64,000 nucleotides of DNA from an uncultured Bdellovibrionales bacterium (GTDB taxonomy: Bacteria; Patescibacteriota; Minisyncoccia; Moranbacterales; UBA1568): positions 305,709 through 369,708 of the forward strand of contig CAYLJX010000001.1 of assembly GCA_964384235.1 (NCBI GenBank), written 5' to 3'. This document shows positions 32,829 through 40,810 of this stretch, in pieces (position 1 is the first letter of the stretch; every line of letters begins with the position of its first letter). Below the pieces are notes generated by a model. It made no database searches. It was not told the DNA's origin and worked only from the letters and a program-made list of their open reading frames with translations. The translations under genes and the position numbers were made by a program.

Positions 32829-33131
32829 TTAGATACCCAATTTACGCTTGGCGAGACGATATTGATCGTCGGAAATCTGCCCTGCCTTTTTCATGGCGTC
32901 CAGCGAGGCGAGGATCTCGTCCTTGTGCTTGGCGACGTTCTTGGGCGTCATGGCCTTGCGCATGAGCTTCTCACGCTCCTGCGGACTCATGGCCATGATA
33001 CGCTTCATGGCGAAGCGCTGGAGCATGTTCATGTCTTCCATCTTCGGAGCACCGGACGCGTTCAGGAAGTCCTCGTCCTGCCGTTTCTCCTTTTCGGATT
33101 TCTCTCTTTTTTTGAACGGGTTCCATTTCAT
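32829..33131 (-). CDS. Hypothetical small basic protein
   Basis: 100 aa, ATG verified, Lys/Arg-rich. Positioned immediately upstream of tyrS in the same orientation. Confidence 0.45.
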   Translation of the reverse strand: MKWNPFKKREKSEKEKRQDEDFLNASGAPKMEDMNMLQRFAMKRIMAMSPQEREKLMRKAMTPKNVAKHKDEILASLDAMKKAGQISDDQYRLAKRKLGI

Positions 33132-33230: not shown

Positions 33231-34127
33231 TCATTTCGTTTTCATCTTATACCTCGTGACCAACAGCGCCGACGCGACGTAGATGGACGAATAGGTACCG
33301 AAGGTGACACCGATGAGGATGGCGAGCGCGAAATACCGGATGCTTTCCCCGCCGAAGAGCACGATGGCGAGGAGCGTGATGATGACCGTGAGCGAGGTGT
33401 TGACGGAACGGCCGAGCGTTTCGTTGAGCGAGCGGTTGACCGTCACTTCGAAGTCTTCGCCTTTGCGGGAACGGAGCAGATTCTCACGCACGCGGTCATA
33501 AACGACGATCGTGTCATTGACCGAATAGCCGAGGATAGTAAGGAGGGCTGCGATAAACGGGACACCGATTTCGATACCGTAGAACTTTCCCAGGATCACG
33601 AACGCTCCGATCGTCACGACGATATCATGGGCGAGCGCGATGATGGCACCGAGACCATACTCCCACGACGTGACTATCCCCGACACCCGACGGAAAGCCC
33701 AGGCGATATAGAGCGCGATACCGATGACGGAGAGTATCACCCCGCTGTAGGCGTTCTTCTTGATCTGATCGGAAACCGATCCCCCGATGAAGTCGGTGCG
33801 AAGGAGCGTCAGTCCCGGATCCAACCCCTTGAGTTTCCCGAGAACCTGTTCATTCCCCGCCTCATCGGACGCGAGATATCGGAGAAGCATCGCCTTGTCA
33901 CCCGTCGGCTGGACCGTGAGGCTCTGGAGCGAGAGGCTCCCGAGTGCCTCGGACACTTCCGCGACCTGCGGCACCGGATCCTTTGTGAACTGCACCTCCA
34001 TGAGCGTACCACCCTTGAAGTCGATACCGAGCTTGAGCCCCCACAGTGCCAAAAGAATCACACTCCCGACCGTAAGGATACCGGAGAACAGGTAGGCATA
34101 CTTTCTTTTCTGAATGATCTGCAACAT
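33231..34127 (-). CDS. secF: Protein translocase subunit SecF
   Basis: The track ORF begins with a TTG at 34154. The first ATG at 34125-34127 (MLQIIQKRKYAYLF...) is the more likely start. Typical SecF 6-TM organisation. Confidence 0.9.
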   Translation of the reverse strand: MLQIIQKRKYAYLFSGILTVGSVILLALWGLKLGIDFKGGTLMEVQFTKDPVPQVAEVSEALGSLSLQSLTVQPTGDKAMLLRYLASDEAGNEQVLGKLKGLDPGLTLLRTDFIGGSVSDQIKKNAYSGVILSVIGIALYIAWAFRRVSGIVTSWEYGLGAIIALAHDIVVTIGAFVILGKFYGIEIGVPFIAALLTILGYSVNDTIVVYDRVRENLLRSRKGEDFEVTVNRSLNETLGRSVNTSLTVIITLLAIVLFGGESIRYFALAILIGVTFGTYSSIYVASALLVTRYKMKTK

Positions 34128-34152
34128 ATATTTCAGTAAACAATCAGCAATC

Positions 34153-34230
34153 AACAGTCAACATCTTACACCGCACTTCATTTTCTTAATCGTATCCGGT
34201 TTATTGTTGACTGTTAACTGTTAACCGGAT
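34153..34230. repeat. secD-secF intergenic inverted repeat plus GTTAAC dyads
   Basis: An 11-bp perfect inverted repeat pairs AACAGTCAACA (34153-34163) with TGTTGACTGTT (34205-34215). CCGGTT...GTTAACTGTTAACCGG contains two GTTAAC sites. Confidence 0.5.
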
Positions 34231-35907
34231 TCACTCCAATGGTTTTTTCGGTGAAACAAGGAGATTAGAATGTTTCTCCATCCACTCTCCTGACAGAAAA
34301 TCGATGATGATGCGCACCAGGACCACTGCCGTAAAGAGCGAGAGAGCCACACCGAGCGCCAGGATGATCGCAAAACCCTTCACGAATCCGGTTCCGAGTC
34401 CCATGAGGATGAACGTCGTGATAAGAGTCGAGACGTGGCCGTCCCGGATGCTCGGCCAGGCACGACGGAAGCCTTCCTTCAGCGACTTGAGCACGTTCTT
34501 GCCATAGGAGAGTTCTTCGCGGGTGCGCTCGAAAATGAGCACGTTAGCATCGACCGCGATACCGATGGAGAGGATGAAACCAGCGATACCCGAGAGCGTC
34601 AGTGTGATGGCAAACGGCGTAAAGACAGAGAGCTTGAAAATAGTCGCGAGCATCGCCGTATACAGGAGAAGCGCGACGACCGCGATCACGCCGAGGAAGC
34701 GATAGTACAAGACCATGAACACCGCCACCGCCAACAGCCCCATCACACCGGCAAAGAGGCTCTGCTGGAGCGCGCTCTCCCCGAGCGACGCATCCACGCT
34801 CTGCTGTCCGACCAGGGTGATCGGTACCGGGAGTGCACCTTCGTTGAGACGCTTCACGAGAGCATTCGCCTCCTGCATGGTGAAGTTGCCGGTGATGACC
34901 GCCTGTCCTGCGACGATCTCGCTCTGGACGGTCGGCTGACTGATGATCTCGCCGTCGAGCATGATCGCGACCGGTTTTCCGATGTTTCGCTTGGTGATTT
35001 CGGCGAAGAGCCGGGTCCCTTCGTCATCGAACCGCAAAGCAATCTGAGGCGACCCGATACCCTGGCTCTGATAGTCCACGTAGGCATCTTTCAGATTTTT
35101 TCCGGAAAGTCCCGTTGCCTGGAACATCAGATCCGGGTACTGTTCGATGGAGCGCTTGATGAAGAGGATGTGCGAGGCGCGCACTTCCTTGTCGTCGCCC
35201 TCGCCACGCTCGTCGGTCTTCTTGATGATGTGCCAGCCGAACGGACTCTCCACGAGAGACGGATACACCTCGCCGTTCTTCAAAGCATCGCCGAAGACGA
35301 CATCATCGAACTGCGGAACGAACGTCCCCTTTTTGGCGAAATCCAAGTCACCGCCCTTGTCCTTGGATCCGGGGTCCTGACTGAATTCCGTCGCCAGCTT
35401 GGCAAAGTCTTCGCCTTTCTTGGCACGTTCCAAGACGCCCTCCGCCTGTCGCTTCGTCTCTGCATTGAACTCATCGAACTGCCTCTCAGCTTCCTCACCG
35501 GCCGGCTCACGGAACTCCAGAAACGGCGTCTCCTTGATCATCGATTTCGCCTGCTCGATATCCTTGATACCGGGAAGTTCCACGATGATATGGTGTTCCG
35601 TACCGGAACGCGAGAGCTGGACCAAGGGTTCACCGACACCGAAGGCGTTGACACGGCGTTCGATGACCGCCTCCGCGGCAGAGAGAGCGTCGCTCACTTT
35701 GGCGTCCTCCACCTGGGACACGTCGGCCTTGTACTCGAGGTGGATACCACCCTGCAAGTCGAGTCCTTTGTTGAACTTGAACTGGTCGAAGAAATCGAAG
35801 ATGCCCGGCACGAATTTCACCGCCTGCGGATAGGCGACAAGTCCGGTCAACAGACCAAGCAGGAGCACTCCGGCAAACTGGTAGCGGATTTTCGATTGAT
35901 ATTTCAT
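34231..35907 (-). CDS. secD: Protein translocase subunit SecD carrying an inserted parvulin-type PPIase domain
   Basis: 558 aa, ATG verified. A SecD TM1 and P1 head are followed by 6 C-terminal TM helices. Residues about 140-260 match parvulin (GEDFAKLATEFSQDPGSKDKGGDLDF...FGWHIIK...ASHILF). Confidence 0.85.
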   Translation of the reverse strand: MKYQSKIRYQFAGVLLLGLLTGLVAYPQAVKFVPGIFDFFDQFKFNKGLDLQGGIHLEYKADVSQVEDAKVSDALSAAEAVIERRVNAFGVGEPLVQLSRSGTEHHIIVELPGIKDIEQAKSMIKETPFLEFREPAGEEAERQFDEFNAETKRQAEGVLERAKKGEDFAKLATEFSQDPGSKDKGGDLDFAKKGTFVPQFDDVVFGDALKNGEVYPSLVESPFGWHIIKKTDERGEGDDKEVRASHILFIKRSIEQYPDLMFQATGLSGKNLKDAYVDYQSQGIGSPQIALRFDDEGTRLFAEITKRNIGKPVAIMLDGEIISQPTVQSEIVAGQAVITGNFTMQEANALVKRLNEGALPVPITLVGQQSVDASLGESALQQSLFAGVMGLLAVAVFMVLYYRFLGVIAVVALLLYTAMLATIFKLSVFTPFAITLTLSGIAGFILSIGIAVDANVLIFERTREELSYGKNVLKSLKEGFRRAWPSIRDGHVSTLITTFILMGLGTGFVKGFAIILALGVALSLFTAVVLVRIIIDFLSGEWMEKHSNLLVSPKKPLE

Positions 35908-35960
35908 ACTTCCTCAGTATATCGGGGACGCGGAGGAATTGCAAATCCAAGCCAAAAACC

Positions 35961-37661
35961 CTATCCCGGGTATCTTTCTTCCAGACGTTTGAGGACGCGT
36001 TCGGTCTGAGGGAGAAGTTTCGCGGCGTAGGCTTCGTAGCTCTCGACTGATGTAAGTCCACCGTTTTCCAAGAGAAGCAATCGGTCGAGACGGACGCGTT
36101 CGAGGAAGCGGCGGTCGTGCGTCACCAAGAGAAGTGTACCGGGATAATTTTCGAGCGCCTCTTCGAGAGCTTCGATCGCCTCAAGGTCGAGATGATTGGT
36201 CGGCTCGTCCAGGACAAGCACGTTCGCACCCTTGGCCGAGAGCAGCGCGAGGATGAACCGCACCCGCTCCCCTGGACTCAAGGTCTCTATCTTGTCATCG
36301 ATCACGTCCGGGGAAAACTGGAACCGTGTGAGATGTATGAGCACCTCGTCCTTGTCGTACATGTCGAGACGCTTTTTGAAGAGTCCGGAGAGCGTTTCCT
36401 TCTGTGGGATGTCCTCGTGCTCCTGCAAGAGATTGCCGAACACCAGCGCACTCCCACGGATCACTTCTCCTCCGAGCGGTGCGATCTCTCCGGAGAGCGT
36501 CTTCAGAAGCGTCGATTTGCCAGCACCGTTCGTCCCGAGGATGCCGAGACGTGTCCCGAACGGCACTTCCAGCGTCGCCGGCTCGGATCGGAAACCCTCC
36601 TCGTATCCGAACACGACATCCTTGAAGGCAATACTGTTTTCCTCTTCGCTTTTCTTCGGATCCAGAACGATGGAAATCGGCGTACGCTCAAGCGGCCGCT
36701 CCACTCCGCGCAATCGTTTCTCCCGTTCCTCTAGTACCTTGGCGGATGTGCTGAATTTCTTGGCGGCACGTTCTTTCTTGTAGTTCGAGGTAAGCTTGTC
36801 ACGGTCCGGCGCGATGCTTTCCTTGGTCCGTTCCACCCACTTCCTCTTCTGCTCCATAGAGGACAGAAGACGCGAGCGTTCCTCTTCCTGCATACGATAA
36901 GCTTCCTTGTGCTGGCGGACGACATGTGCCTTCATCTCGGCGAAGTCGCTCCACCCGCCGGTGTACATCGTGACATCCCGTCTGTACCAGTCGATCTCGA
37001 TGACCTTGTCCACGACGTTGTCGAGGAAGCGTCGGTCATGCGAAGCAATGAGACACGTCGCCTCGGAACGCGAGAGGTACCGCTCCAACCACAAGAGTGC
37101 CGGCAGGTCGAGATTGTTCGTCGGCTCGTCAAGCAACAACAGATCGACGCCGCGAAGGAGTACCGCCGCGAGCGCCGCCTTGCGCTTTTCCCCGCCGGAG
37201 AGTGTCGCCACTAAGACGTCGAGACCGACATGTGAGAGGAATAGTCCCTCGAGCATCCCTCGTACTTTTCGCTCGAAGTCGTACCCGCCGAGACGACGGT
37301 ACTCAGTTTCCAATGCCTCGTACTTTTCGAGCGCTTCCGGTTTCTCCAGGCGCGGCTCCAGGATTTTCATTCCTCTCTCGATTTCTTCGAGTCCTGCCAT
37401 ACGACGAAGGTATGCGAGGAGCGTTTCTTCAGACTGCGCTATTGATTCTTGTGACAGATATCCGATGAGGGCGCGTTTACCCACCTGACGTTCGCCCTTC
37501 TCGAAGGATTCTTCCCCTGCCACGATCCGAAGCAAAGTCGATTTGCCGACGCCGTTCTGCCCCACGAGCGCGACCTTCTGCCCGGCACCCAGACTGAAAG
37601 ACACCTTGTCCAGGACACGGCGCGTACCGAATGTTTTGCGGATATTCTTGAGCGTGAGCAT
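35961..37661 (-). CDS. ABC-F family ATPase (EttA/Uup/YheS-like, two ABC domains, no TMD)
   Basis: 566 aa with two Walker A motifs (GQNGVGKST and GTNGAGKST) and two signature motifs. Confidence 0.9.
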   Translation of the reverse strand: MLTLKNIRKTFGTRRVLDKVSFSLGAGQKVALVGQNGVGKSTLLRIVAGEESFEKGERQVGKRALIGYLSQESIAQSEETLLAYLRRMAGLEEIERGMKILEPRLEKPEALEKYEALETEYRRLGGYDFERKVRGMLEGLFLSHVGLDVLVATLSGGEKRKAALAAVLLRGVDLLLLDEPTNNLDLPALLWLERYLSRSEATCLIASHDRRFLDNVVDKVIEIDWYRRDVTMYTGGWSDFAEMKAHVVRQHKEAYRMQEEERSRLLSSMEQKRKWVERTKESIAPDRDKLTSNYKKERAAKKFSTSAKVLEEREKRLRGVERPLERTPISIVLDPKKSEEENSIAFKDVVFGYEEGFRSEPATLEVPFGTRLGILGTNGAGKSTLLKTLSGEIAPLGGEVIRGSALVFGNLLQEHEDIPQKETLSGLFKKRLDMYDKDEVLIHLTRFQFSPDVIDDKIETLSPGERVRFILALLSAKGANVLVLDEPTNHLDLEAIEALEEALENYPGTLLLVTHDRRFLERVRLDRLLLLENGGLTSVESYEAYAAKLLPQTERVLKRLEERYPG

Positions 37662-37751: not shown

Positions 37752-37985
37752 CTATCGGGTCCTCCTCTTTTCTATTTCCGGCCACATCATCTCGAGATCC
37801 TTCTGGACCTGGGCCATATCGTCATGTTTGTCGAAGAATCCGTACCCGAGCTTTTCCTGGAGCAGCTCGTCCACCATGTCGATATACTCGTCATACGATT
37901 CCACGCCCTGCGCCCGCACCCTGGCCCGCAACTGAAAGTAGAGGCTTTGCAAGGAGACATCTTGTGGATTGACGGTCTGCATCAT
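37752..37985 (-). CDS. Hypothetical small acidic protein
   Basis: The track ORF starts with TTG. The in-frame ATG at 37985 (MMQTVNPQDV...) gives 77 aa. The overlapping plus-strand ORF 37743..38042 is less protein-like. Confidence 0.4.
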   Translation of the reverse strand: MMQTVNPQDVSLQSLYFQLRARVRAQGVESYDEYIDMVDELLQEKLGYGFFDKHDDMAQVQKDLEMMWPEIEKRRTR

Positions 37986-38038
37986 AGGTTCTTGTTTCGC
38001 TGTACTATAATACAAGCGTCCATGGAAAAATATTCTCC

Positions 38039-38548: not shown

Positions 38549-38686
38549 AAAGAAAGAGATTTTTTGAAAAAAGAAGCCGTTTGCAGTACTCTTCAGAGTA
38601 CGTCCATATTTCCAGAGTACACGAAAGAATCATCCTTGACAAAGTGACTTTTCGGTGTTCCAATTGAATTTCCTCACTTTCCCGTC

Positions 38687-40810
38687 ATGAAACGTCTCTC
38701 CGTCTTCCCGCAATTCATCGGTCGCTCCCTCTTCCGGGAAATCCTCTGGTTCTCGGGCCTGTTCGTTCTCGGAGTAGCCTTTGGCATCGCGAGCATCTAT
38801 CTCTGGGGCACTCCGAGCGTCGAGGGCGTCGCTTCGTTCCCCTTCAAACAGTCCTCCGTCCTCTACGACCGGACCGGTTCCATCGAACTCTACCGCCTCT
38901 ACGGCGAAGAAAACCGCACCGTGGTCGGCCATGACGCCATCCCTGCCGCCGTCCGTCTCGCCACCATCGCCTCGGAAGACGCGCACTTCTATTCGCACCA
39001 GGGTATCGATCCCCTGGCCATCCTCCGCGCGCTCAAGGTCAACCTCATGAACCAGGAGATCGAACAGGGTGCCTCGACCATCACCCAGCAGCTCACGCGA
39101 AACCTCTTCCTCACCCGGGAACGTACCCTGGGACGCAAAGTCCGCGAGATCTTCCTCGCGGTCAAGATCGACCGCTACCTCGACAAGGACACTATCCTCG
39201 ACATGTACCTGAACGCCGTCCCCTACGGCTCCAACGCCTACGGCATCCAGGCAGCCGCCGAAACCTATTTCAAAAAAGACGCCCGGAATCTCTCGATCGA
39301 CGAGAGCGCCTTCCTCGCCGCCCTTCCCAACGCCCCGACCTACTACTCCCCCTATGGCACCCACAAGGAAGAACTGCGAAGACGACAACACGACATCCTC
39401 CGCAAGATGTACGATCTCGGCCTCATCGATCGGGAGAAGTTCGACGGGGCGATCGGGACGGACACGCTCGCCAAGGTGAAACCGATCGAACGTCCGATCC
39501 GCGCCCCGCACTTCGTCTTCTATACGCTCGATACGCTCCGGGAAAAATACGGTCAGGAAGCGCTCGAGACCGGCGGGTACGCCATCTACACCACGCTCGA
39601 CCACGACCTGCAGCAGGCCGCCGAAAAAGCGGTGAAGACCGGTGCCGCCAAAAACCTCTCCCGCCGTGCCGAAAACGCCGCTCTCGTCTCGATCAACCCC
39701 AGGACCGGAGAAGTCCTCGCCATGGTCGGCTCCAAGGATTACTTCGATCCCAAAATCGACGGGCAGGTGAACGTCACCACGCGCGCCCGCCAGCCAGGCT
39801 CTTCCTTCAAACCCTTCGCCTACGCCAAGGCCTTCGAAAAGGGCTTCCAGCCGGAGACACCGCTCTATGACGTTCCGATCAACTTCGGCCCGGACGGCAG
39901 CGGCAAGGACTACATCCCCCACAACTACGACGGCAGGTATCACGGCAAAACGACGATGCGCGGCGCTCTCGCCATGTCTCTCAATATCCCGGCCGTCCAG
40001 ACACTCGCCCTGGCCGGTGTCCCGGACACCATCGAACTCGCCACCCGCCTCGGTATCACGACCCTCACCGATCCCAAACGGTACGGCCTCGCGCTCGTCC
40101 TCGGCGGTGCCGAGGTCCGCCCCCTTGATATGGCAAGTGCCTTCTCCGTCTTCAGTCAGGAGGGTGTCCGGCATGATATCCAGCCGATCTCCCGTCTCTA
40201 TGACCGCTATGGGAGAATCCTCCAGAAAAGCGACGCGGCGAGCAGTACGCGTGTCCTCGACACCGAGATCGCGAGAAAGATCAATTCCATCCTCTCCGAC
40301 AACCAGGCCCGCACCCCCATCTTCGGCCCGCGCAGTCCGCTCGCGTTCCCCAAGGGCGTGACCGTCGCCGCCAAGACCGGTACGACACAGAACTTCCGTG
40401 ACGCCTGGACGGTCGGATACACGGGATCCATCGCCGCGGCCGTCTGGGTCGGTAACAACGACAACCGCGCCATGGCGCCGGGATCGGACGGTATCTTTGT
40501 CGCCGCCCCGATCTTCCGGGAATACATGGACTATGCGCTCACGCGCTTCCCGGAAACCGGCTTCACTCCGTATACCCCCTCGGCGACCAAGTTCGCTGCC
40601 AAAGACCTCGGGGAACGACTCGGCGATATCGATGTGGACACCGTCTATATCGACAAGAAGACCGGTCGGGAAGTCTCCAAGAAAAAAGCCAAGAAACTCG
40701 GAAGTGACAAGGTGGAGAAACGTTCCGTCCTCGACCTCGACGACGATGAGGACAAACCTGGAACGGTGCGTTTCGAGGACATGCGCAAACTCTACACCCC
40801 CGCTTCCTAA
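38687..40810 (+). CDS. Class A penicillin-binding protein (GT51 transglycosylase plus transpeptidase)
   Basis: 707 aa with an N-terminal TM helix. GT51 motifs EDAHFYSHQGID and ASTITQQ are followed by transpeptidase SxxK, SxN and KTG (AKTGTT). Confidence 0.9.
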   Translation: MKRLSVFPQFIGRSLFREILWFSGLFVLGVAFGIASIYLWGTPSVEGVASFPFKQSSVLYDRTGSIELYRLYGEENRTVVGHDAIPAAVRLATIASEDAHFYSHQGIDPLAILRALKVNLMNQEIEQGASTITQQLTRNLFLTRERTLGRKVREIFLAVKIDRYLDKDTILDMYLNAVPYGSNAYGIQAAAETYFKKDARNLSIDESAFLAALPNAPTYYSPYGTHKEELRRRQHDILRKMYDLGLIDREKFDGAIGTDTLAKVKPIERPIRAPHFVFYTLDTLREKYGQEALETGGYAIYTTLDHDLQQAAEKAVKTGAAKNLSRRAENAALVSINPRTGEVLAMVGSKDYFDPKIDGQVNVTTRARQPGSSFKPFAYAKAFEKGFQPETPLYDVPINFGPDGSGKDYIPHNYDGRYHGKTTMRGALAMSLNIPAVQTLALAGVPDTIELATRLGITTLTDPKRYGLALVLGGAEVRPLDMASAFSVFSQEGVRHDIQPISRLYDRYGRILQKSDAASSTRVLDTEIARKINSILSDNQARTPIFGPRSPLAFPKGVTVAAKTGTTQNFRDAWTVGYTGSIAAAVWVGNNDNRAMAPGSDGIFVAAPIFREYMDYALTRFPETGFTPYTPSATKFAAKDLGERLGDIDVDTVYIDKKTGREVSKKKAKKLGSDKVEKRSVLDLDDDEDKPGTVRFEDMRKLYTPAS

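What the first reader, a model, noticed from the sequence alone, without database searches (positions are those of the whole stretch)
35127..35480. SecD carries an inserted parvulin-type peptidyl-prolyl isomerase domain, apparently circularly permuted
Within the periplasmic P1 region of SecD, the segment GEDFAKLATEFSQDPGSKDKGGDLDFAKKGTFVPQFDDVVF...SPFGWHIIK matches the parvulin core nearly motif for motif (compare E. coli PpiC GADFGKLAKKHS..GGDLGEF..GQMVPAFDKVVF..FGYHIIKV). The strand that normally opens the domain (xxHILV) is found after it, in EVRASHILFIKRS, which suggests a circular permutation.

A foldase domain built into the SecDF translocon accessory would couple export to prolyl isomerisation. 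I am not aware of this being a described SecD architecture.
Basis: partly seen in the sequence, partly recalled or inferred. Interest (0 to 1): 0.6.

Follow-up and report, generated by a model that had tools for sequence, protein, structure and literature searches.

The report
SecD with built-in permuted parvulin foldase
The protein-export helper SecD of this Patescibacteria (CPR) bacterium carries a prolyl-isomerase folding domain, with its strands in rearranged order, inside its outward-facing loop; this fusion is conserved across much of that large bacterial radiation and apparently has not been described.

Summary
Window 34231-35907 (minus strand) encodes a 558-aa SecD, followed by SecF. 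Residues 136-260 are a parvulin PPIase domain (Pfam Rotamase_3, E 9.5e-24). It is inserted in the extracytoplasmic P1 domain, between the last base strand (LEFRE134) and the P1 head.

The domain is circularly permuted. The canonical order is beta1-alpha3-beta-alpha-beta2; here it is alpha3-beta-alpha-beta2-beta1'. Five lines of evidence agree:
- HMM coverage and score after de-permuting the sequence
- an invariant trailing-strand His246 (80/80 species)
- an AlphaFold2 model of the domain alone (pLDDT 91, pTM 0.84)
- covariation linking the trailing strand to beta2 and beta4
- co-loss of the two histidines in divergent members

The catalytic Asp178, Ser/Thr221, the His pair and the proline pocket are conserved, so an active translocon-resident foldase is the most likely function. 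This is inferred, not shown.

The architecture is not a one-off. It occurs in at least 80 species-level genomes of Patescibacteria. Two-parvulin versions and SecDF-fused versions occur in other lineages of the same radiation. All are annotated simply as "SecD". I found no paper describing either the fusion or a permuted parvulin. It is a new variant of known kinds and of moderately high interest.

The parts
34231..35907 (-). secD gene (558 aa plus stop)
   Evidence: ORF. TIGR01129 scores 372.2 bits against a cut-off of 244.4. Pfam SecD_1st, SecDF_P1_head and SecD_SecF_C all match. Foldseek of the full-length AF2 model hits SecDF structures 5XAN, 5YHF and 3AQP at E 1e-17 to 1e-20.
35818..35877 (-). 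TM1 (residues 11-30, FAGVLLLGLLTGLVAYPQAV), preceded by a K/R-rich N-terminus. It places the following P1 domain outside the cytoplasm.
   Evidence: Sequence. AF2 predicts a helix at 3-25. The SecD topology itself is established knowledge for the family.
35503..35679 (-). N-terminal part of the P1 base (residues 77-135), ending in the strand LEFRE134
   Evidence: Pfam SecD_1st E 4.5e-17. It aligns to Tth SecDF 32-117, which ends '...LEFRI'.
35206..35496 (-). Parvulin core, residues 138-234: alpha1 (138-163), alpha2 (168-175), alpha3 (179-183), beta2 (187-192), alpha4 (198-204), beta3 (219-221), beta4 (224-234). It contains D178 (nt 35374-35376), S221 (35245-35247) and H226 (35230-35232).
   Evidence: Pfam Rotamase_3 and Rotamase. 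DSSP and pLDDT 85-98. phmmer matches SurA, PrsA and Par10. Conservation.
35188..35205 (-). Hairpin loop GEGDDK (residues 235-240) joining beta4 to the relocated beta1
   Evidence: DSSP. It resembles the SurA P1-P2 linker: DERGEGDD-KEV against DLRGESKNISVTEV. This loop is expanded by 40-60 residues in some relatives, such as P0122, P0143 and P0149.
35158..35187 (-). Relocated beta1 strand (beta1'), EVRASHILFI, residues 241-250, with H246 (nt 35170-35172)
   Evidence: De-permutation HMM test. Alignment to SurA P2 beta1. AF2 strand E241-250 at pLDDT about 95 in the isolated domain. H246, I247 and L248 are 80/80 conserved and were not part of the search pattern. Covariation with beta2 and beta4.
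35128..35157 (-). Linker KRSIEQYPDL (residues 251-260) back into SecD
   Evidence: pLDDT drops here in the domain model. The segment lies between the Pfam rotamase and head matches.
34825..35127 (-). P1 head subdomain (residues 261-361)
   Evidence: Pfam SecDF_P1_head E 1.2e-30, HMM positions 15-114. It aligns to Tth SecDF from residue 160.
34288..34806 (-). TM2-TM6 bundle (residues 368-540), including D453 (nt 34549-34551), which aligns with Tth SecDF D340
   Evidence: Pfam SecD_SecF_C. AF2 predicts five long helices from 373 to 538. Alignment 'giAVDaNVLifER' against 'gaAVDgNVLsfER'. D453 is 50/50 conserved.
33231..34154 (-). secF, the partner subunit, 76 nt downstream of secD
   Evidence: TIGR00966 scores 276.6 bits against a cut-off of 160, and Pfam SecD_SecF_C gives E 8e-56.

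Best explanation
This is the SecD subunit of the SecDF export motor of a Candidatus Moranbacteria-type Patescibacteria (CPR) bacterium. A complete but circularly permuted parvulin-type peptidyl-prolyl isomerase domain of about 125 residues has been built into its extracytoplasmic P1 domain. It sits exactly between the last strand of the P1 base and the P1 head.

Shown: the domain's strand order is alpha1-alpha2-alpha3-beta2-alpha4-beta3-beta4-beta1'. The strand that normally opens the fold now follows beta4 as a hairpin and fills the slot between beta4 and beta2. This restores the His-His pair (H226/H246) next to Asp178 and Ser/Thr221.

Inferred: because the cut is at the beta1/alpha1 junction, both new termini lie together and plug into the base-head hinge of P1.

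Inferred function: SecDF uses the proton-motive force to swing P1 and pull the emerging unfolded chain out of SecYEG. The embedded parvulin binds the same chain at the channel exit and catalyses cis/trans isomerisation of Xaa-Pro bonds, and/or holds the chain. It would be a one-per-translocon, covalently tethered equivalent of PrsA, PpiD or SurA.

Inferred origin: the permutation most plausibly arose from a SurA-like tandem parvulin module by loss of the terminal pieces. Relatives with two parvulin cores at the same site preserve that arrangement.
For: Identity and insertion site.

Permutation:
- De-permuted sequence gives Rotamase_3 HMM coverage 14-115 and 94.8 bits, against 32-115 and 89.8 bits in native order. 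A head-to-tail duplicate gives one stretch covering HMM 8-115.
- The strand aligns to SurA P2 beta1.
- The AF2 full-length model has pLDDT 85-92 in the insert, with E224-234 hairpinned to E241-250.
- The AF2 domain-only model has pLDDT 91.2 and pTM 0.84, with beta2 still in strand state. In the canonical fold beta2's only partner is beta1.
- MI-APC covariation on 253 sequences (Neff about 198) ranks D187-R243 (beta2 to beta1') 3rd of 5460 pairs. T231-S245, T231-R243, D232-R243 and W225-K251 (beta4 to beta1', i+j about 474-476) are also in the top 13. That is 4 of the top 10 against 0.4 expected, p about 4e-4, with no enrichment for helix partners.
- The published parvulin fold is beta-alpha3-beta-alpha-beta2, with the S1 and S4 histidines hydrogen-bonded (PMC2678132).
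- The five divergent single-core class A-like representatives that lack the beta4 His (P0130, P0159, P0171, P0195, P0200) also lack a His at the aligned trailing-strand position.

Active-site conservation: D178, H246, I247 and L248 are 80/80 across species-level genomes at about 50-74% identity. S/T221, F223, G224 and H226 are also 80/80, but these were part of the search pattern. The pocket residues are L188 70/80, F/M/L/Y196 and F/Y200. The best PDB sequence match is the catalytically active SurA P2 domain (domain E 2.3e-11), not P1 (0.011).

Distribution: all 120 closest homologues carry PF00639/PF13616. About 100 of the top 150 50%-cluster representatives have a parvulin core between base and head. 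80/80 kept genome loci have the same order.

Functional plausibility from the literature: SurA's parvulin domains are predicted to dock on the SecDF P1 head (PMC9987972). PrsA-like proteins form a dome over SecDF in Mycoplasma. PpiD-YfgM sits at SecYEG.
Against: - There are no biochemical data, so PPIase activity and client binding are inferred from residue conservation only.
- The dual-His motif has been argued to be structural rather than catalytic (Bailey et al. 2008, as cited in PMC2678132). Its conservation therefore proves fold integrity more than catalysis.
- No 3D coordinates were available. The beta1' position rests on DSSP strings, pLDDT/pTM and covariation, not on measured contacts.
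- The covariation analysis is simple MI-APC without phylogenetic correction.
- The full-length model has pTM 0.45, so the position of the parvulin relative to the head, the base and SecY is unknown.
- I could not test whether these genomes lack a stand-alone PrsA. One survey reports PrsA annotations in all CPR classes (PMC9166423).
- Some divergent family members have lost the catalytic residues, so catalysis is not universally required.
Confidence: 0.7

Rival explanations
1. The embedded parvulin is a catalytically silent client-binding or docking module, like the PpiD parvulin domain or SurA P1. It would act only as a holdase, or as an extra substrate-capture surface for P1.
For: Inactive parvulin domains are common in translocon-associated and periplasmic chaperones (established knowledge for PpiD and SurA P1). 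The His pair may be structural. In two-core relatives the first core has lost the beta4 His in 26/26 representatives, and several single-core relatives have lost D178 and both His. This shows the position tolerates non-catalytic domains.
Against: In the class this protein belongs to, D178, S/T221, H226, H246 and the hydrophobic proline pocket are retained in 80/80 species despite about 50% overall divergence. The closest solved relatives are active domains: SurA P2, PrsA and Par10.
Confidence: 0.2
2. The domain mainly acts mechanically. It would be a spacer or regulator inserted in the base-head hinge that tunes or gates the proton-driven swing of the P1 head, with no direct contact to clients.
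For: The insertion site is the base-to-head connection. The same site carries unrelated insertions of about 85-140 aa in other SecDs, such as P0175, P0183 and P0204, so it is an insertion-tolerant hot spot.
Against: A purely mechanical spacer would not need an intact parvulin active site conserved over 80 species. Nor would it need a second, intact, canonical-order parvulin, as seen in class B.
Confidence: 0.06
3. The domain is not permuted. It would be an N-terminally truncated three-stranded parvulin remnant, with EVRASHILF belonging to the SecD linker or head.
For: In native order, Pfam matches stop at residue 233. No atomic coordinates were available to measure contacts.
Against: De-permutation improves the HMM match. 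The isolated-domain AF2 model keeps the strand at pLDDT about 95 with pTM 0.84. The strand covaries with beta2 and beta4. H246, I247 and L248 are invariant. Canonical SecD has no counterpart, since the Thermus alignment resumes at query 267.
Confidence: 0.03
4. The feature is an assembly chimera or a frameshift artefact joining a PrsA-like gene to secD.
For: None beyond the general risk that comes with metagenome-assembled genomes.
Against: The insert lies in-frame inside one ORF, flanked on both sides by SecD sequence. The same architecture is present in hundreds of independent assemblies from different sources.
Confidence: 0.01

Closest known systems
Canonical SecDF (Thermus thermophilus 3AQP/5YHF, Deinococcus radiodurans 5XAN, E. 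coli SecD 5MG3_D)
   Same: TM1, then the P1 base and head, then the TM2-6 architecture. The essential TM4 Asp is kept (D453 = Tth D340). The GG motif is present and SecF is adjacent.
   Different: Canonical proteins have about 42 residues (Thermus) between the LEFR base strand and the conserved head. This protein has 132 residues there, which form a parvulin domain.
PrsA (Bacillus and Staphylococcus lipoprotein foldase)
   Same: An extracytoplasmic, membrane-tethered parvulin with the Asp-type active site (SQDPGS..GGDL..FGxHII). It acts on proteins that have just left SecYEG in monoderm cells. phmmer E is 1e-12 to 1e-15.
   Different: PrsA is a separate lipoprotein. Its canonical-order parvulin is inserted in an NC chaperone domain, and it forms dimers. 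Here there is no NC domain or lipobox, the strand order is permuted, and the host is SecD itself.
SurA (P1-P2 tandem parvulins) and its proposed docking on the SecDF P1 head
   Same: SurA is the best sequence match. In native order the insert aligns to the SurA P1 core plus the P1-P2 linker plus beta1 of P2. Two-core relatives are colinear with SurA P1-P2. SurA's parvulin domains are modelled to contact the SecDF P1 head (PMC9987972).
   Different: SurA is soluble, is canonical in strand order, has N- and C-terminal chaperone segments, and serves outer-membrane-protein biogenesis in diderms. Its association with SecDF is non-covalent.
PpiD-YfgM at the SecYEG lateral gate (E. coli)
   Same: A parvulin-containing protein stationed at the exit of the Sec channel to receive emerging chains (PMC9643414).
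   Different: PpiD is a separate single-pass protein, and its parvulin domain is catalytically inactive (established knowledge). It associates with SecY rather than being part of SecD.
Mycoplasma pneumoniae dome complex (Mdp444/436/489, PrsA-like) on SecDF
   Same: A genome-reduced bacterium lacking an outer membrane couples a PrsA-type folding system physically to SecDF and SecYEG (10.1101/2025.04.25.650208 and 10.1101/2024.09.05.611430).
   Different: The Mycoplasma system uses separate large lipoproteins that form a trimeric dome held by non-covalent contacts. It is not a domain fusion and no permutation is reported.
Bacteroides periplasmic PPIase (PDB 8HM3/8HM4)
   Same: Best Foldseek match of the isolated domain: E 5.6e-8, 113 columns, rmsd 2.8 A, TMq 0.69. 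The sequence alignment runs through the trailing strand.
   Different: It is a 427-aa soluble, multi-domain protein. I could not determine whether its topology is also permuted or whether the extra strand is beta1 of a following domain.

Membership tests
SecD (TIGR01129 / Pfam SecD_1st + SecDF_P1_head + SecD_SecF_C) | Score above the curated family cut-off | tested here: met
   TIGR01129 scores 372.2 bits against a cut-off of 244.4. All three Pfam SecD models score above their gathering thresholds.
SecD (TIGR01129 / Pfam SecD_1st + SecDF_P1_head + SecD_SecF_C) | Topology of TM1, a large extracytoplasmic P1 domain (base plus head), then a five-helix bundle | tested here: met
   AF2 predicts helices at 3-25 and five helices from 373 to 538, with beta-rich P1 between them. 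Foldseek hits SecDF crystal structures at E 1e-17 to 1e-20.
SecD (TIGR01129 / Pfam SecD_1st + SecDF_P1_head + SecD_SecF_C) | Conserved proton-pathway Asp in TM4 (Tth D340) | tested here: met
   D453 aligns with Tth D340 in 'AVDxNVLxFER' and is invariant in 50/50 homologues.
SecD (TIGR01129 / Pfam SecD_1st + SecDF_P1_head + SecD_SecF_C) | A partner SecF encoded adjacently or fused | tested here: met
   secF lies at 33231-34154 on the same strand. TIGR00966 scores 276.6 bits against a cut-off of 160.
SecD (TIGR01129 / Pfam SecD_1st + SecDF_P1_head + SecD_SecF_C) | PMF-dependent stimulation of protein export | not testable with these tools
   This requires genetics or biochemistry.
Parvulin-type PPIase (PF00639 / PF13616) | Sequence match above the Pfam gathering threshold | tested here: met
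   Rotamase_3 scores 84.6 bits (cut-off 22.5) and Rotamase 72.5 bits (cut-off 21.7).
Parvulin-type PPIase (PF00639 / PF13616) | Canonical element order beta1-alpha1-alpha2-alpha3-beta2-alpha4-beta3-beta4 (PMC2678132) | tested here: not met
   The order here is alpha1-alpha2-alpha3-beta2-alpha4-beta3-beta4-beta1'. The same elements are present with cyclically shifted connectivity, so this is a circular permutant of the family fold rather than a standard member.
Parvulin-type PPIase (PF00639 / PF13616) | Four-stranded antiparallel sheet with the beta1-type strand between beta2 and beta4 and paired histidines | tested here: inconclusive
   Supported indirectly by the DSSP strand states and pLDDT/pTM of the isolated domain, by covariation of beta1' with beta2 and beta4, and by conserved H226/H246. 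No coordinates were available to measure contacts.
Parvulin-type PPIase (PF00639 / PF13616) | Active-site residues: His (S1), Asp/Cys, Ser/Thr, His (S4) and a hydrophobic proline pocket | tested here: met
   H246, D178, S/T221 and H226, plus L188, F196 and F200. D178 and H246 are 80/80 and were independent of the search pattern.
Parvulin-type PPIase (PF00639 / PF13616) | Measured prolyl cis/trans isomerase activity | not testable with these tools
   This needs the protease-coupled peptide assay or NMR exchange spectroscopy.
PrsA/SurA/PpiD-type chaperones (parvulin inserted in an NC or SurA_N chaperone module) | Presence of the N- and C-terminal chaperone module (SurA_N-type) flanking the parvulin | tested here: not met
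   No SurA_N-type Pfam family matches at E <= 1. The flanks are the SecD base and head. It is therefore not a member, although it plausibly works like one.
PrsA/SurA/PpiD-type chaperones (parvulin inserted in an NC or SurA_N chaperone module) | A separate polypeptide: lipoprotein, single-pass anchor or soluble periplasmic protein | tested here: not met
   The domain is internal to the polytopic SecD ORF.

The most novel reading that the evidence does not exclude
The embedded parvulin is an ancestral, radiation-wide innovation of Patescibacteria that makes prolyl isomerisation and chaperoning energy-coupled. Because the domain is wired into the base-head hinge, with its catalytic cleft next to the attachment point, the proton-driven F-to-I swing of SecD P1 would cyclically expose and occlude the parvulin site. 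This would give an otherwise ATP-independent foldase a PMF-driven bind-and-release cycle in a compartment without ATP. In the two-core forms, a canonical active parvulin would be nested inside the hairpin loop of a degenerate permuted one, forming a SurA-like clamp on the motor.
Probability: 0.12. Interest if true: 0.85.

Novelty: new variant of a known kind. Interest (0 to 1): 0.62.

Why it matters
How proteins that leave SecYEG are received, protected and folded is an active question. Relevant systems include PpiD-YfgM, SurA docking on SecDF, and the Mycoplasma SecDF-PrsA-like dome.

A natural covalent fusion of a parvulin foldase into the moving P1 domain of SecD acts as a Rosetta-stone link, and it is conserved across much of a very large bacterial radiation. 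It argues that SecDF and parvulin chaperones work on the same substrate at the same moment. It also offers a single-polypeptide system in which that hand-over can be studied structurally and biochemically.

As far as I could find, it would be the first natural circularly permuted parvulin. The one-core and two-core relatives provide a ready-made series for studying how permutation arises from tandem domains.

Practically, thousands of database entries labelled only "SecD" hide a PPIase. This may distort PrsA/PPIase presence-absence calls in metabolic reconstructions of CPR genomes.

Tried and rejected
- **Foldseek of the full-length model against PDB.** It returned only SecDF and RND transporters and said nothing about the insert, so I modelled the insert alone.
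- **Coordinates.** Structure prediction exposes no coordinates, so strand contacts could not be measured. I substituted the DSSP logic and a covariation analysis.
- **The search for related loci with a mixed class A and class B alignment.** It failed because no stretch was conserved enough. It was rerun with class A only, so the genome scan speaks only for class A.
- **The listing of cluster members on ten representatives.** It gave almost no taxonomic names. Taxonomy came instead from genome record titles and NCBI names.
- **The 8HM3/8HM4 Bacteroides PPIase.** I tried to learn its topology from the literature and from alignments. This was inconclusive.
- **Rejected: the trailing strand is SecD linker.** See the rivals section.
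- **Rejected: the window holds a separate PrsA.** A local HMM scan of all six frames found no other parvulin.
- **Rejected: an upstream monitoring peptide.** There are only 53 nt between the ABC-F stop and the secD start.
- **Literature searches.** Searches for SecD with parvulin, PPIase, PpiC or rotamase, and for circular permutation of parvulins, found no description. The library lacks most subscription-journal papers, so absence is not proof.
Full report
**1. What is at the coordinates**

The interval 35127-35480 lies inside a minus-strand ORF, 34231-35907, of 558 aa. It corresponds to residues 143-261.

The ORF is a bona fide SecD:
- TIGR01129 scores 372 bits against a cut-off of 244.
- Pfam SecD_1st matches 77-135, SecDF_P1_head 261-361 and SecD_SecF_C 368-530. 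A Sec_GG motif is also present.
- AF2 predicts TM1 and a five-helix bundle.
- Foldseek matches the SecDF crystal structures.
- The TM4 proton-pathway Asp is conserved: D453 equals Thermus D340.
- secF follows 76 nt downstream.

The neighbouring genes are housekeeping: TyrRS, ABC-F, NUDIX and a class A PBP. The window's closest relatives are Candidatus Moranbacteria/Moraniibacteriota MAGs.

**2. The insert is a parvulin**

Rotamase_3 (E 9.5e-24) and Rotamase (E 6e-20) match residues 147-233, far above their gathering thresholds. phmmer against PDB sequences finds SurA, PrsA, Par10 and Pin1.

Alignment to Thermus SecDF pairs query 44-134 with Tth 32-117, ending in the shared LEFR strand. It resumes at query 267 = Tth 160. 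So 132 residues stand where Thermus has about 42. The domain therefore sits at the base-to-head connection of P1. It follows TM1 and so lies on the extracytoplasmic side, according to the established SecD topology.

**3. The permutation**

The Pfam matches lack the N-terminal strand (HMM positions 1-32 of 116). Seven lines of evidence place that strand after beta4.

- (a) **De-permutation test.** Placing DDKEVRASHILFIKRS in front of the core extends Rotamase_3 coverage to HMM 14-115 and raises the score from 89.8 to 94.8 bits. A head-to-tail duplicate yields one stretch covering HMM 8-115.
- (b) **Alignment.** The strand aligns residue for residue with SurA P2 beta1: EVRASHILF against EVHARHILL.
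- (c) **Full-length AF2 model.** The insert is the most confident region of the model, at pLDDT 85-92. Its element order is H138-163, H168-175, H179-183, E187-192, H198-204, E219-221, E224-234, E241-250.
- (d) **Domain-only AF2 model.** Residues 134-264 modelled alone give pLDDT 91.2 and pTM 0.84, with the trailing strand at about 95. Beta2 stays in strand state although, in the canonical fold, its only partner is beta1.
- (e) **Published topology.** The parvulin fold is beta-alpha3-beta-alpha-beta2, and the S1 and S4 histidines are hydrogen-bonded neighbours (PMC2678132). A strand carrying the S1-type His must therefore lie beside beta4.
- (f) **Covariation.** This is independent of AlphaFold. 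It used 253 non-identical family sequences (Neff about 198). D187-R243 (beta2 to beta1') ranks 3rd of 5460 pairs. T231-S245, T231-R243, D232-R243 and W225-K251 (beta4 to beta1') share a consistent antiparallel register. Four of the top ten pairs are of this kind against 0.4 expected (p about 4e-4). Helix partners show no enrichment.
- (g) **Co-loss.** The five divergent single-core representatives that lack the beta4 His (P0130, P0159, P0171, P0195, P0200) also lack a His at the aligned trailing-strand position.

No atomic coordinates were exposed, so direct contact measurement is still missing. I rate the permutation at about 0.9.

**4. Conservation and likely activity**

In 80 species-representative genomes retrieved with a pattern in beta3/beta4, every locus has the order base, core, beta1', head. 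D178, H246, I247 and L248 were not part of the pattern, and all are 80/80 at 48-74% identity. S/T221, F223, G224 and H226 are also 80/80, but by ascertainment. The proline-pocket positions stay hydrophobic or aromatic.

The best solved relative is the catalytically active SurA P2 rather than P1. This pattern is what one expects of an active Asp-type parvulin such as PrsA or Par10. Activity is nevertheless inferred, and the His pair may be structural.

**5. Distribution and family anatomy**

- All 120 nearest homologues, down to 72% identity, carry the rotamase Pfam hits.
- A search of 1.84 billion 50%-cluster representatives with the P1 region found 164 clusters at E <= 1e-30. About 100 of the top 150 have a parvulin core between base and head.

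*Class A.* This protein's class is about 560-590 aa. It has one intact core followed about 20 residues later by the His strand. Record titles include Moraniibacteriota, Parcubacteria group, and Kerfeld-, Komeili-, Kuenen- and Buchananbacteria.

*Class B.* These proteins are 650-1100 aa. Named members include Falkowbacteria and Parcubacteria, and SecDF fusions in Peregrinibacteria and Abawacabacteria. They have two cores. Among 26 two-core representatives:

| Position | His retained |
|---|---|
| First core, beta4 | 0/26 |
| Strand between the cores | 20/26 |
| Second core, beta4 | 25/26 |
| Strand after the second core | 2/26 by HMM alignment (19 not aligned; some of these still carry a His, e.g. 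P0129 SHIF) |

The parsimonious reading is as follows. The middle strand plus the second core form a canonical-order, active parvulin. The degenerate first core is completed, if at all, by the last strand. That would make class B a circular permutation of a whole SurA-like tandem, or equivalently a canonical parvulin nested in the beta4-beta1' hairpin of a permuted one.

Three observations are consistent with this:
- The class B insert is colinear with SurA P1-P2, starting just after SurA P1's own beta1.
- The class A beta4-loop-beta1' segment resembles the SurA P1-linker-P2 beta1 segment.
- The hairpin loop is expanded by 40-60 residues in some class A members.

The order of evolutionary events remains unresolved.

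**6. Mechanism (inferred)**

SecDF is thought to use the PMF to swing the P1 head and pull the emerging chain. A parvulin wired into the hinge would meet the same unfolded chain at the channel exit. It would bind hydrophobic Xaa-Pro segments and accelerate the rate-limiting prolyl isomerisations. This is the job done by separate proteins elsewhere: PrsA, PpiD-YfgM, SurA (whose parvulin domains are modelled on the P1 head, PMC9987972) and the Mycoplasma PrsA-like dome on SecDF.

Cutting the fold at the beta1/alpha1 junction puts both termini, and the nearby catalytic cleft, next to the attachment point. This may be why the permuted form was fixed, but that is speculation.

The rivals are a silent holdase, a mechanical hinge spacer, no permutation, and an artefact. 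They are weighed in their own section.

**7. Novelty**

The architecture is present in public databases. The Pfam hits are precomputed, but the proteins are named only "SecD" or "SecF". Seven full-text searches found no paper describing a SecD-parvulin fusion or a circularly permuted parvulin. The library omits most subscription journals, so this is not proof of absence.

I classify it as a new variant of known kinds: SecD and parvulin. It is not categorically new.

**8. Limits**

- There is no biochemistry and there are no coordinates.
- The orientation of the domain relative to the rest of SecD is poorly predicted (pTM 0.45).
- There is no whole-genome check for stand-alone PrsA (see PMC9166423).
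- Taxon labels come from record titles. Some of these, such as "uncultured Bdellovibrionales" or "Gammaproteobacteria" on Moranbacteria-like contigs, and the Bacteroidales and Actinobacteria labels, look like mislabels.
- The covariation analysis is not phylogeny-corrected.

Noticed in passing
Related proteins P0129, P0137, P0141, P0145, P0146, P0150, P0163, P0168, P0191 and the P0154-type SecDF fusions: Two-parvulin SecD and SecDF proteins occur in Falkowbacteria, Parcubacteria, Peregrinibacteria and Abawacabacteria. They have a degenerate first core (beta4 His lost in 26/26), an intact His strand, an intact second core, and a mostly degenerate trailing strand. The insert is colinear with SurA P1-P2 minus P1's beta1. 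This suggests a nested or whole-tandem permuted topology.
   Followed up: partly
P0231 (322 aa) and P0259 (430 aa): These are arrays of 3-4 tandem parvulin units with Cys at the Asp178 position (DFSCGGDL...FGHI...AHIL). They have no detectable SecD base or head. They may be fragments or a separate multi-parvulin family.
   Followed up: no
P0175, P0183, P0204 and P0225: These SecD relatives have about 70-140 extra residues at the same base-to-head junction that my parvulin HMM does not recognise. The junction looks like an insertion hot spot that may hold other domains.
   Followed up: no
P0122, P0143 and P0149: In these class A-like proteins the beta4 His and the following beta1-type His are 52-66 residues apart instead of about 20. 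The hairpin loop therefore tolerates large insertions. This is the site where a second parvulin would be nested in class B.
   Followed up: no
PDB 8HM3/8HM4 (Bacteroides periplasmic PPIase, the target of BfUbb): This is the best structural match of the isolated domain (113 columns, 2.8 A). PrsA hits align at 11-15 A, and SurA, Par10 and Pin1 do not appear in the Foldseek top 50. The sequence alignments to 8HM4 run through the trailing strand. That protein may share the core-plus-trailing-strand arrangement.
   Followed up: partly
window 34435-36009 (+) and 38630-40174 (-): Long ORFs of 524 aa and 514 aa lie antisense to secD (extending into the end of the ABC-F gene) and to the PBP1a gene. Their compositions are low-complexity and rich in Arg, Gly, Asp and Glu. 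They are most likely non-coding shadows of the sense genes in this 53.7% GC sequence.
   Followed up: no
Loci L004, L005, L007, L011, L012, L052, L054 and others; P0361 and P0366: Contigs encoding Moranbacteria-like SecD at 50-73% identity are titled 'uncultured Bdellovibrionales' or 'Gammaproteobacteria'. Class B proteins are labelled Bacteroidales or Actinobacteria. These are probably placeholder or wrong taxon labels on MAGs, not evidence that the fusion occurs outside Patescibacteria.
   Followed up: no
Literature: PMC9166423: A CPR survey reports PrsA as encoded in all CPR classes on the basis of automated annotation. Some such calls might stem from the parvulin embedded in SecD rather than from a stand-alone PrsA.
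   Followed up: no
window 32829-33131 (-) and 37752-38015 (-): Small ORFs of 100 aa and 87 aa flank the secDF and ABC-F genes. Neither has a significant Pfam family match. The 100-aa ORF lies between secF and tyrS on the same strand.
   Followed up: no
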